Assembly (NCBI GenBank): GCA_963677595.1
Contig: OY782041.1
Span: forward strand, 832,001 to 896,000
Reading direction: 5' to 3'
Length of the DNA: 64,000 bases
From: Spirochaetia bacterium
GTDB lineage: Bacteria; Spirochaetota; Spirochaetia; CAKZLE01
Under the pieces are notes generated by a model. It was not told where the DNA came from. It worked only from the letters and a program-made list of their open reading frames with translations, and made no database searches. Position numbers and translations under genes: made by a program. Positions 7,210-10,751 of the stretch are shown piece by piece (position 1 is the first letter of the stretch; each line of letters begins with the position of its first letter).

Positions 7210-7509
7210 CTAAGTCAAACGAATATAGTCTTTCACGCGGTCAAGCAGATATAACACCTCTTCCTGGCTTGACGGCTTCCTGTCATCAGGATCGACGAAG
7301 AACTCGAACGGCTTCACTTCCAGGATCTGTGAGAACTTTTCTAGTGTCTTCACAGACGGGAAGCTTCTGCCTACTTCGATCTCTCCAACGAACCCTGCTG
7401 AGATTGAGCAGAACTCAGCGAGTTTTGCTTGTGAAAGGCCCTTTGACTTTCTGAATCGCTTCAGGTTGCTGATAAAAACCTTCTGTAGATCCGGTACATA
7501 TTTACTCAT
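7210..7509 (-). CDS. XRE-family helix-turn-helix regulator
   Basis: NLKRFRKSKGLSQAKLAE...IEVGRSFPSVKTLEKFSQILEV is a classic HTH_3 pattern. Confidence 0.9.
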   Translation of the reverse strand: MSKYVPDLQKVFISNLKRFRKSKGLSQAKLAEFCSISAGFVGEIEVGRSFPSVKTLEKFSQILEVKPFEFFVDPDDRKPSSQEEVLYLLDRVKDYIRLT

Positions 7510-7702
7510 ATATATACAATACTATATAAATCAAATAATGTGTACCCTTTTTGGTGATTATTTTTGAATTTTACTCATTAATAGCACAATTTCATGTTTA
7601 ACAAGGATTTAACCGTTTATATCTTATTCTTTTCTGTATCAGTATTTAAATACTTGACTTTTTAAGTCGATTATTCAATAACGTAAACAATGACTCGGTC
7701 AG

Positions 7703-8434
7703 CTAGAGCAGATGACCGCCCCCGTCCACCCGCAGGACCTCCCCGGTCACGAATTCAGAGGTGATGAGGAAGCTAACGGCACGAACGAGGTCGTCTGTCG
7801 AACCGGTCCTCCCGACAGGAAGGGTCTCGGACATCCGCCTGAAATATGCCTCATCGCGTCCGTCCTTTGGGAGGATCGCTCCCGGGGCGATCCCGTTCAC
7901 CCGTATCTGCGGGGCCAGGTCGACTGCCAGGGAGCGGGTCATGGTGCTCAATGCTCCTTTGGAGATGTAGTAGGGGCTGAACCCCGCTGCCGGGTTCCCG
8001 ATCCGGGAATCGATCATGTTGATGATGCAGCCGGTCTCTGAAGCTTCATGGGTCTCCCGGAAGGATGCAGCGAACTCCCGAGACAGGATATACGGGGCTG
8101 TTACATGGACGGCAAGATGCTCTTCGAGCAAATCATAGCCGGATCCTTTCTGGAAGACTGACGCAGAATTGACCAGCCCATCGATCGGTCCCATGATATC
8201 TGCAGCACGCGCGATCAGGGAGGCTACCCCATCAGGGTCCCTGAGGTCCTGCTTGAGCAGGCAGTACTCACCCCCGAGCGCCTCGATCATTGAGGCAGTC
8301 TCTTGCGCCTCAGCCTCTGAGGTATGGTAATGGATGATGATGCGTGCACCTTCCCTGGCAAGCCCGAGGGCGATTGCCCCGCCAACCCGTTTAGCGGCTC
8401 CCGTGATCATGAATGTCGCGTTCTCTATTCTCAT
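7703..8434 (-). CDS. SDR-family oxidoreductase (pteridine reductase/FolM-like)
   Basis: ITGAAKRVG, VNSAS, YYISK (YxxxK), VNGIAPG, VDGG. Confidence 0.88.
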   Translation of the reverse strand: MRIENATFMITGAAKRVGGAIALGLAREGARIIIHYHTSEAEAQETASMIEALGGEYCLLKQDLRDPDGVASLIARAADIMGPIDGLVNSASVFQKGSGYDLLEEHLAVHVTAPYILSREFAASFRETHEASETGCIINMIDSRIGNPAAGFSPYYISKGALSTMTRSLAVDLAPQIRVNGIAPGAILPKDGRDEAYFRRMSETLPVGRTGSTDDLVRAVSFLITSEFVTGEVLRVDGGGHLL

Positions 8435-8532
8435 TGCCCATACTATACCGTGAACGGATCACCGGGTAAATAGTACGGGAATTATTTCATTCAGAACTGG
8501 ACAGATCAAGGATTATAGGGTAAAGTGGTATA

Positions 8533-8648
8533 AGATAATTGTCATATGACAGTTATCGCAGAATCCCGTATCATCGGACCTTTCCTGTTTCGATGCTACA
8601 ACATAACTCTCTCTCATATAGCCGCCTGTGTTACAGGCGGCTTTTTAT
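8533..8648 (+). ncRNA. Candidate small non-coding RNA (~115 nt)
   Basis: TGGACA-17-TAAAGT promoter (8498-8526), two hairpins containing G-U pairs, and a strong terminator; no upstream + strand gene needs terminating here. Confidence 0.55.
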
Positions 8649-8650
8649 TT
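8620..8650 (+). terminator. Intrinsic terminator
   Basis: AGCCGCCTGT-GTT-ACAGGCGGCT followed by TTTTATTT. Confidence 0.85.
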
Positions 8651-8759
8651 GACTTTTGCTCTTCATCATCCCTATATTCTTAACTACTGATATATGAGAT
8701 CCAGTGAACATGAATACTACCGGCAGGCCCTGACTGCCGTGAATACAAGGAGTTCAGCA

Positions 8760-10751
8760 ATGAACCGTTCGAATATGAACATACAGAATGACCAGGATAA
8801 CCCTAACTGGAATGAAGCCCGAGGACAGAATGACAAGAAGGAACCGGGGATCCACAGTGAAGAAGGTACCTGGTATGACAGGCTCAAGAACAACAAACAC
8901 CGTTTCACGTTCTTCTATATCCTGCTGATCATCATCGGCATCATGGTCGTGAACTCCTTCCTCACTGCTGACCGCAGCAGCACGGAGATCGAGTACAATG
9001 TCTTCAAGGAGTATATCATATCCGGGGAGATCAAGCGTGTAGAGATCACCGATAAACAATACATCGGATACTCGGTGACCAGAGACCTCGTCCTGCAGGC
9101 ACAGGAATCACAGAACCTGCAGTCCATGATGGGGATCACGACCTACAAGACCTACCAGGTCGATGACCCCAACTTCATCCCACTCCTGGACGAGTACGGG
9201 ATCGAGTACTACGCCGCTGCCCCGGTTGAGCCGAGTCTCCTCTCAACGATCATCAGCTGGGTACTTCCCCTGGCGATCATGCTGCTCATCTGGCGATTCG
9301 CCTTCTCCAGGATGAACAAGGGGATGGGTCAGGGAGTCATGTCTTTCAACCAGAACAAGTCCAAGATCGTCGCTGAGAGCGACACGAACACCAGGTTCTC
9401 CGATGTCGCCGGTGCCGACGAGAGCAAGCAGGAGCTTGAGGAGGTCGTGGACTTTCTCAAGAACTCGGAGAAGTACACGGCAGTCGGCGGCAAGGTCCCG
9501 AAGGGCGTCCTCTTAGTTGGCCCTCCGGGAACCGGCAAGACCCTGCTGGCAAAGGCTGTCGCAGGGGAAGCCGGCGTTCCCTTCTTCAAGATGAGCGGGG
9601 CGGACTTCGTGGAGATGTTCGTCGGTGTCGGTGCGGCACGTGTCCGTGACCTCTTCCGCCAGGCACGGGAGAAAGCTCCCTGCATCATCTTCATCGATGA
9701 GATCGATGCTATCGGGAAATCGAGGACGGGAAGCATCTCCGGCAATGACGAACGAGAGCAGACACTGAACCAGCTCCTCGTGGAGATGGACGGATTCGAC
9801 TCACGCTCGAGCGTCATCATCCTCGGGGCGACGAACCGTCCGGAGATCCTCGATCCTGCCCTCCTGAGGCCGGGCCGGTTTGACCGGCAGGTCCTCGTGG
9901 ACAAGCCGGACCTTGAGGGACGACATGCCATCCTCAAGATCCATTCCAGGGATGTGAAGCTGTCGAAGCAGGTCAACCTCAAGGCAATAGCCCAGGCGAC
10001 TGCAGGTCTCTCTGGAGCCGACCTTGCCAACATTGTCAATGAGTCTGCACTCCTGGCTGTCAGGAACAAGCGTACTGCTGTCGAGCAGGAGGACCTGATG
10101 GAGGCTATTGAGAAATCGATTGCCGGCCTCCAGCGTAAAGGCAGGGTCATGAACGAGAAGGAGCGGGAGCGGGTCGCCTACCATGAGGTCGGCCATGCGT
10201 TATCGGCTCATTACACCGAAGGTGCTGACCCGGTCATCAAGATCTCGATCATCCCGAGGGGCCTTGGGGCACTGGGGTATACCCTGCAGCAGCCCACAGA
10301 GGACCGGTTCCTCATGTCGGAGCACGAACTGCTCAACAGCGTCGATATCCTGATGGGAGGACGGGCTGCTGAGGAGGTACGGTACGGTGAGATCTCCACC
10401 GGTGCAGGCAATGACATCAGCAGGGCAAGCGACCTGGTGCGAAAGATGATCACCGAGTACGGGATGAGCGAGAAGTTCAGGAATATCACCCTGCCAAGCG
10501 GCCAGTCACGGACCATGCTCGGGACCGGTATCGGCGGGCAGAAGGAATACTCGGAAGAGACCCAGGAGTATATCGACTCAGAGACCGCCCGGATCGTGAA
10601 CAGCCGGTATGAGAAGATCATAGAACTCCTCAAAGACAAGGGAGCCCTCTTGGAGAAGATCACGAGGAGGCTCCTCGAGATCGAGTCCCTGACCGGGGAC
10701 GAGTTCAAGGGCCTGATCGATGAGTATGAGGAAGCCTTGGCGCTGACCTGA
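8760..10751 (+). CDS. ftsH: ATP-dependent zinc metalloprotease FtsH
   Basis: Two TM helices, [39 protein letters not shown]. Start ATG 8760 follows AAGGAG (the ORF is open from 8694). Confidence 0.96.

What the first reader, a model, noticed from the sequence alone, without database searches (positions are those of the whole stretch)
8498..8650. Orphan three-hairpin small RNA candidate upstream of ftsH
Seen: a complete mini transcription unit between the divergent SDR and ftsH genes. The promoter TGGACA-17-TAAAGT puts +1 near 8533. Hairpin 1 is GAUAAUUGUC-AUAU-GACAGUUAUC (8534-8557). Hairpin 2 (8568-8599) has the loop CUUUCCU. A CUCUCUCUC single-stranded stretch and a strong intrinsic terminator follow. 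The stems contain G-U pairs on this strand, which favours RNA-level function. ftsH has its own TTGACT/TATATT promoter after the terminator. Inference: a trans-acting sRNA with anti-Shine-Dalgarno-like pyrimidine seeds. I do not recognise the family.
Basis: partly seen in the sequence, partly recalled or inferred. Interest (0 to 1): 0.7.

Follow-up and report, generated by a model that had tools for sequence, protein, structure and literature searches.

The report
Genus-specific spirochaete small RNA before ftsH
A short DNA unit with its own promoter-like site, three hairpins and a terminator-like end is conserved in three related uncultured spirochaetes and is likely a new small regulatory RNA predicted to block translation of other genes, an ordinary kind of regulator whose targets could not be pinned down.

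Summary
Positions 8498-8650 carry a sigma70-type promoter, two hairpins, an unpaired CU tract and a 10-bp terminator (fold z -6.5). A separate ftsH promoter follows. The whole unit is syntenic in 2 of 2 other genomes of the genus. Its -35/-10 boxes persist while the spacer diverges (4/17 identical), five stem pairs change on both sides, and the unpaired ACAUAACUCUCUCUCAU is invariant. No Rfam family matches, and no full-length homologue was found in the other genera searched. SRP and 6S RNAs lie elsewhere, and Hfq was not found. Best reading (0.55): an independent, about 115-nt, Hfq-independent trans-acting sRNA. Its CU tract, complementary to GAGAGAG-NN-AUG, would pair over ribosome-binding sites, as LhrC/RsaE-type RNAs do. 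Limits: expression is untested, covariation from three sequences is not significant, and a two-genome target scan did no better than shuffled seeds. An ftsH attenuator is disfavoured: no antiterminator fold was found, and ftsH keeps its own promoter in relatives lacking the RNA. A sister genus has a similar terminator there closing a radical-SAM gene, a weak hint of origin by terminator capture. New member of a known kind; modest interest.

The parts
8498..8526 (+). P1, sigma70-type promoter (-35 TGGACA, 17 nt, -10 TAAAGT), predicted to drive the RNA
   Evidence: TAGACA-17-TATCGT at the same place in G001 and G002 while the spacer is only 4/17 identical to G000. A strain variant in runs X2/X3 reads TACAGT and keeps the T, A and T consensus positions.
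8533..8648 (+). Predicted small RNA, about 115 nt (ends inferred from promoter and terminator)
   Evidence: Fold z -6.5; full-length covariance-model hits in G000, G001 and G002 only; no Rfam match.
8534..8557 (+). Hairpin 1 (10 bp, loop AUAU); also a near-perfect DNA palindrome with invariant core TCATATGA
   Evidence: Loop-anchored comparison: 3 pairs changed on both sides, 2 on one side, 2 of 30 cells broken. T8556C in X2/X3 breaks one pair.
8568..8599 (+). Hairpin 2 with exposed loop UUUCCU (8581-8586); UUCCUG invariant; possible second anti-SD seed
   Evidence: 1 pair changed on both sides, 2 on one side; loop unpaired probability 1.0.
8601..8617 (+). Unpaired CU tract ACAUAACUCUCUCUCAU, invariant in three species; predicted seed
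   Evidence: mean unpaired probability 0.95; its reverse complement reads AUGAGAGAGAG-UU-AUG-U (from the sequence).
8620..8651 (+). Intrinsic terminator (stem 8620-8642, U tract after it)
   Evidence: one pair C-G/U-G/U-A across species; C8625T in X2 keeps a U-G pair; a similar terminator lies at the same place in G005.
8649..8678 (+). P2, ftsH's own promoter TTGACT-18-TATATT
   Evidence: the same boxes and spacing in G001, G002, G003 and G005.
8760..10751 (+). ftsH (neighbour)
   Evidence: TIGR01241 at 771 bits, cut-off 600; start at 8760 behind AAGGAG.
7703..8434 (-). Divergent SDR-family gene, pteridine-reductase-like (neighbour), with its own promoter 8470-8442
   Evidence: best family PRK09134, E 4e-70, below its curated cut-off.

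Best explanation
The element is a genus-conserved unit of promoter-like site, two hairpins, an unpaired CU tract and a terminator-like stem, and it likely encodes an independent small RNA of about 115 nt that would repress other genes by pairing its CU tract over their ribosome-binding site and start codon. Shown: anatomy, fold, synteny and pattern of conservation in three species, no Rfam match, no Hfq found. Inferred: transcription from P1 at 8533 to the U tract near 8648; hairpin 1 as 5' protection and possibly also a repressor site on the DNA; ACAUAACUCUCUCUCAU (and secondarily the UUCCUG loop) as seeds for A/G-rich sites of the form GAGAGAG-NN-AUG; action without Hfq. The terminator also keeps P1 from running into ftsH, which has its own promoter. 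No target is established.
For: Found in 2 of 2 other genomes of the genus, between the same SDR and ftsH genes. Promoter boxes kept with a diverged spacer, 4/17. Five pairs changed on both sides in a loop-anchored comparison: 3 in hairpin 1, 1 in hairpin 2, 1 in the terminator. 95.5% of cells pair against 29-54% when partners are slid. The invariant stretches are the unpaired ones, while linker 1 varies in length and sequence. Of the 60 best duplexes on 1200 sampled genes, 35 span SD to AUG; 2 of 60 shuffled seeds reached 35. Most stable body among the promoter-plus-terminator units of the genome. No conserved ORF: the 45-codon frame from ATG 8546 has no SD and is in another frame in G002 (read). 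Hfq PF17209 not found in 4 of 4 genomes, while found in 5 of 14 controls. The anatomy matches LhrC as described in PMC13350326 (passages).
Against: Covariation on the MAFFT alignment is not above shuffles (3 pairs, 155/500; score 97/500), and G001/G002 are close kin, so there are few independent events. Raw conservation is unexceptional: this intergenic region ranks 35 of 150, and 57 of 150 share an exact word of 17 nt or more between G000 and G001. Over 1243 orthologue pairs the best conserved target (z -2.62) was matched or beaten by 19 of 25 shuffled seeds. Top single-genome targets were not conserved. The only near-perfect complements lie in non-equivalent places. Three changes break hairpin 1 pairs, two of them A.C.
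Confidence: 0.55

Rival explanations
1. A cis element for ftsH: P1 is an upstream ftsH promoter and the three hairpins form an attenuator or leader whose read-through adds to ftsH expression.
For: P1 points into ftsH and the synteny is fixed in three species; any read-through would reach ftsH.
Against: Forbidding the terminator costs 20 kcal/mol and no antiterminator fold appears. P2 is kept in G003 and G005, which lack P1 and hairpin 1. No riboswitch or thermometer family matches.
Confidence: 0.13
2. A real small RNA that works by binding a protein (decoy or scaffold) or by sponging another RNA, rather than by pairing with mRNAs.
For: Invariant unpaired motifs, yet no conserved mRNA target above shuffles; self-complementary hairpin 1 loop CAUAUG.
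Against: Not CsrB-like: 1, 0 and 0 GGA in the three RNAs. SRP RNA lies elsewhere in 3 of 3 genomes and 6S elsewhere in 2 of 3. The one sponge partner considered fell in a promoter and was not conserved. The seed's bias for SD-to-AUG windows fits mRNA pairing better.
Confidence: 0.17
3. No functional RNA: a DNA operator palindrome next to a promoter-like site, plus an old insulating terminator in front of ftsH, conserved at the ordinary level of an intergenic region.
For: Hairpin 1 is a full DNA palindrome lying at +2 to +25, where operators often lie (own knowledge). Region conservation is unexceptional (35 of 150). The terminator also serves at this place in G005 behind another gene.
Against: TRTCATATGAYA occurs once in G000 and forms no regulon; 6 of the 11 other exact hits in G001-G005 lie inside coding matches. 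Hairpin 2 and the CU tract are not explained, and G-U pairs favour the + strand RNA. A conserved promoter 115 nt before a terminator has no gene to drive.
Confidence: 0.15

Closest known systems
Listeria LhrC1-5 sRNAs
   Same: Stem-loop, single-stranded stretch and terminator, with CU-rich motifs in unpaired parts that pair with AG-rich ribosome-binding sites, mostly without Hfq (PMC13350326, passages; PMC8383071, passages).
   Different: No sequence match in Rfam; single copy; an extra 5' hairpin; CUCUCUCUC-AU and UUCCUG instead of UCCC; terminator loop GUU carries no CU motif; spirochaete host.
Staphylococcus RsaE and other UCCC-motif sRNAs
   Same: About 100-110 nt, intergenic, unpaired C/U-rich seed that represses at the RBS (PMC8383071, passages).
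   Different: No conserved UCCC motif; the RsaOG hit is 21 bits against a cut-off of 50, E 1.6.
Young sRNAs born in rearranged intergenic regions (Salmonella-specific sRNA of Raghavan et al. 2015)
   Same: Lineage-restricted sRNA with a sigma70 promoter in a region whose upstream neighbour differs between sister genera (PMC4350180, abstract only).
   Different: Here the order of events is unknown and expression untested; the shared part with the sister genus is chiefly the terminator and P2.
Borrelia sRNAs such as SR0440 (DsrA_Bb)
   Same: Spirochaete intergenic sRNA in a host without Hfq (PMC11607428, passages).
   Different: No homology: no Rfam match and no full-length model hit outside the genus among 151 genomes of the class.

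Membership tests
Trans-acting base-pairing sRNA (class) | Own promoter and intrinsic terminator in an intergenic region | tested here: met
   (consensus matches conserved in three species; activity not measured).
Trans-acting base-pairing sRNA (class) | No conserved reading frame | tested here: met
   Read; no ORF of 60 aa or more overlaps it.
Trans-acting base-pairing sRNA (class) | Conserved secondary structure with covariation | tested here: inconclusive
   5 two-sided changes by loop-anchored comparison; not above shuffles on the MAFFT alignment.
Trans-acting base-pairing sRNA (class) | Conserved unpaired seed | tested here: met
   17-nt invariant tract, unpaired probability 0.95.
Trans-acting base-pairing sRNA (class) | Conserved complementary target site in trans | tested here: inconclusive
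   No target above shuffled seeds in 1243 orthologue pairs; short seeds with many targets would also give this result.
Trans-acting base-pairing sRNA (class) | Discrete transcript and regulation in vivo | not testable with these tools
   Only DNA contigs were available to lay.
LhrC / RsaE / any Rfam family | Match at the family's gathering score | tested here: not met
   Best hits RsaOG 21.1/50 and suhB 17.6/41 bits; none over the homologues in L002 and L003.
CsrB/RsmZ-type decoy | Several GGA motifs in loops | tested here: not met
   GGA count 1, 0, 0.
SRP or 6S RNA (divergent housekeeping RNA) | Family match, or absence of the normal copy | tested here: not met
   SRP elsewhere in 3 of 3 genomes; 6S elsewhere in G000 and G001, not found in G002, 86% complete.
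Attenuator or riboswitch leader | Alternative antiterminator fold | tested here: not met
   20 kcal/mol penalty with no rival helix; a protein-driven switch is not excluded.
Transcription-factor operator | Recurrence of the palindrome at several promoters | tested here: not met
   One exact copy in G000; 1 of 7 one-mismatch copies intergenic, this one. A single-site operator is not excluded.

The most novel reading that the evidence does not exclude
A snapshot of sRNA birth by terminator capture. The 3' UTR and terminator that close a radical-SAM gene in front of ftsH in the sister genus were left behind by a rearrangement, gained a promoter and a 5' hairpin, and became an Hfq-independent repressor whose seed reads both the SD and the AUG. 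It may be one of a small set of sibling RNAs, since a second conserved unit in this genus also has AACUCU..AU just before its terminator.
Probability: 0.15. Interest if true: 0.55.

Novelty: new member of a known kind. Interest (0 to 1): 0.33.

Why it matters
Base-pairing sRNAs in spirochaetes are known mainly from Borrelia and Leptospira (search listing), and B. burgdorferi lacks Hfq (PMC11607428, passages). A clean, conserved example from an uncultured free-living lineage would show that LhrC/RsaE-style CU-seed repression without Hfq arose there too, and it is a ready new RNA family seed. If the link to the sister-genus 3' UTR holds, it would document how a terminator becomes an sRNA. It does not open a new class of system, and the host is uncultured, so the practical reach is small.

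Tried and rejected
Expression: no RNA holder listed; the runs laid were contigs only. More homologues: exact seed pattern, 0 in metagenome contigs and 0 in viral contigs; the 16-mer gave 107 loci in genome contigs, of which only 2 (L024, L051) carry the terminator context; 71 metagenome loci of SDR relatives (best hits 47% identity or less) had no model hit; no match in plasmids or phages. Weak model hits outside the genus (E 0.002-1) that were inspected are generic terminators behind other genes or tRNAs; a shared GUGUUAC loop in three of them was considered and dropped. Targets: single-genome top hits (an MFS-like transporter, a NifI1-like PII protein, a binding protein; labels recalled from the N-termini) were absent from the complete GGAGAGAG-N2-6-ATG lists of G001 (29 matches) and G002 (18). 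The one gene with that site in all three genomes overlaps the end of the upstream reading frame, so coding constraint explains it. The DAG-kinase-like gene's site is G000-only. ftsH's own start ranks 2901 of 3628. Best positional candidate, not significant: G000:C1:302617 (GGAGAGAGGUAUG; AAAGAGAGUUAUG in G001). A sponge pairing with a second sRNA candidate was rejected. Earlier findings of the scan: nothing returned. Paper searches for spirochaete sRNA with ftsH, or Spirochaetia with small RNA, listed nothing on this element. Structure prediction of proteins was not relevant and not run.

Full report
Observation. The promoter TGGACA-17-TAAAGT (8498-8526) puts +1 near A8533. Hairpin 1 is 8534-8557, hairpin 2 is 8568-8599 with loop UUUCCU (8581-8586), the CU tract is 8601-8617, the terminator stem is 8620-8642 with a U tract, and a second promoter TTGACT-18-TATATT lies at 8649-8678. 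The predicted RNA folds at -40.2 kcal/mol, z -6.5 to -6.9, with 0 of 200 shuffles as good. The minus strand folds almost as well (-38.3), so G-U pairs in this genome alone (two) do not fix the strand; the promoter and the U tract do. I called 3629 genes with my own script and searched the 905 intergenic regions of 150 nt or more for a promoter followed by a terminator. That gave 18 rows (16 distinct places, several of them tRNA genes), and this unit had the most stable body with the terminator left out (z -4.9).

Neighbours and host. Downstream is ftsH (TIGR01241 above cut-off). Upstream and divergent is an SDR-family gene, followed by a small XRE-type regulator and a sigma54-type two-component pair. 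Two named public records that carry the same element are labelled Spirochaetales and Spirochaetia (L024, L051), so the host is most likely an uncultured spirochaete.

Homologues. A DNA search of 41 genomes found the element in G000 and in 2 of 2 other genomes of the genus, and in none of the other 38. It lies between the same SDR and ftsH genes. A covariance model from the three sequences gave full-length hits only in these three, among 61 and then 151 genomes of the class (strict filters; the model was built from them). The pattern of conservation is the main evidence. The -35 and -10 boxes and the 17-nt spacing are kept while the spacer is 4/17 identical between G000 and either relative. Linker 1 varies in length and sequence. 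The invariant stretches are the unpaired ACAUAACUCUCUCUCAU, the loop UUCCUG and the core of hairpin 1. With hairpins aligned on their loops, five pairs change on both sides: three in hairpin 1, one in hairpin 2, one in the terminator. A strain variant in runs X2/X3 (one sample) keeps the -10 consensus positions, turns a terminator C-G into U-G, changes an unpaired base in hairpin 2, and breaks one hairpin 1 pair. Against over-reading: on the MAFFT alignment covariation is not above shuffles (3 pairs, 155 of 500); G001 and G002 are close kin; and this region ranks only 35 of 150 syntenic intergenic regions by similarity, with 57 of 150 sharing an exact word of 17 nt or more.

What it is not. 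No Rfam family matches the window or the homologues. SRP RNA lies elsewhere in 3 of 3 genomes and 6S in 2 of 3. It has 1, 0 and 0 GGA motifs, so it is not CsrB-like. No reading frame is conserved. As an ftsH attenuator it lacks a rival fold: forbidding the terminator costs 20 kcal/mol. ftsH's own promoter is kept with the same 18-nt spacing in G003 and G005, which lack P1 and hairpin 1. Hairpin 1 is also a DNA palindrome just behind +1, but its core occurs once in G000 and marks no regulon; a single-site operator for the RNA's own promoter remains possible.

How it most likely works. The reverse complement of the invariant tract reads AUGAGAGAGAG-UU-AUG-U, the shape of an A/G-rich ribosome-binding site followed by a start codon. 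The tract is unpaired (probability 0.95). On 1200 genes sampled from G000, 35 of the 60 best duplexes span SD to AUG; 2 of 60 shuffled seeds reached that number, and 3 of 60 reached the 41 that cover the SD. This is modest support. Hfq was not found in 4 of 4 genomes tested, as in B. burgdorferi (PMC11607428, passages). The anatomy of stem-loop, single strand and terminator with CU motifs in the unpaired parts is that of Listeria LhrC, which represses AG-rich ribosome-binding sites mostly without Hfq (PMC13350326, passages; PMC8383071, passages). I therefore read it as an Hfq-independent trans-acting repressor (0.55). That it is a real transcribed RNA of some function is more likely (about 0.8, my estimate).

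Targets were not found. The best G000 start regions did not keep their sites in G001 or G002. I fetched 2.30 of about 3.4 Mb of G001, called 2035 genes and kept 1243 orthologue pairs with at least 50% identity and matching starts. The best conserved duplex (z -2.62) was matched or beaten by 19 of 25 shuffled seeds. One gene pairs over SD and AUG in both genomes (G000:C1:302617; the label 'uroporphyrinogen-decarboxylase/methyltransferase-like' is recalled, not from a call), but it is only a lead. Hybrid energies in that scan had no accessibility term, and gene starts are from my own caller.

Origin. In G005, of the sister genus, the model's weak hit (E 0.005) lies directly before ftsH. There a radical-SAM gene ends, and 75 nt later comes a similar terminator (CCGC..CAGGCGG, U tract, TTGAC) preceded by AUAUCUCUCC and a G-U-rich hairpin. 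G003, of the same sister genus, has the radical-SAM gene and P2 but no terminator. G000 holds only a distant relative of that gene (27-29%). Similarity 5' of the terminator is weak: 34, 167 and 651 of 1000 shuffles score as high for G001, G002 and G000. So the terminator and P2 are probably old, and the RNA may have grown from a captured 3' UTR, as rearranged intergenic regions have produced sRNAs in Salmonella (PMC4350180, abstract). The direction of the change is untested. The ftsH orthologue of G004 was not found with this query.

Novelty and verdict. Searches of the paper library (listings) and of earlier findings showed nothing on this element; supplements were not read, and sRNA lists there could bear on spirochaete homologues. 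It is an undescribed, genus-restricted RNA family of a well-known kind. Interest 0.33.

Noticed in passing
G000:C1:about 2769425-2769505 (minus strand); L434:3560-3640: A second orphan sRNA candidate, about 75 nt: TTGACA-17-TATTTT promoter, one hairpin, a nearly invariant unpaired AAGCACUCAACCAACUCUA(C/U)AU and a terminator. Conserved in G001, no Rfam match. It shares AACUCU..AU before the terminator with the RNA studied here.
   Followed up: partly
G000:C1:1620860-1621013; L346, L347, L348: A conserved leader of about 150 nt before a diacylglycerol-kinase-like gene (label recalled), with a 35-nt exact word shared with G001 and recognisable in G002 and G003; no common fold was evident.
   Followed up: partly
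window 8434-8470 (minus strand): The SDR gene looks leaderless: -10 box TATAGT at 8447-8442 puts +1 at or next to the ATG at 8434; the boxes are also seen in G002.
   Followed up: no
window 7210-7700: A 99-aa XRE-type regulator nearly identical in three species, with a conserved palindrome T(T/A/C)GACT-N5-AGTCAA about 155 nt upstream of its start, a possible operator.
   Followed up: no
L345 (G001:C14, upstream of 144319, minus strand): A cobalamin-riboswitch-like leader (recognised by eye, not scanned) before a binding-protein gene whose first codons match the seed complement at 16 of 17 positions in G001 but not in G000.
   Followed up: partly
G000:C1:42484-46475: A NifI1-like PII gene and a homocitrate-synthase-like gene suggest a nitrogen-fixation cluster (labels recalled from N-termini). 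The PII gene's start GAGAGAGAGAAUAUG is among the best single-genome seed matches.
   Followed up: no
L133, L136, L137: Terminators with the same GUGUUAC apex occur behind unrelated genes in other families of the class; in G000 this apex occurs in one terminator only.
   Followed up: partly
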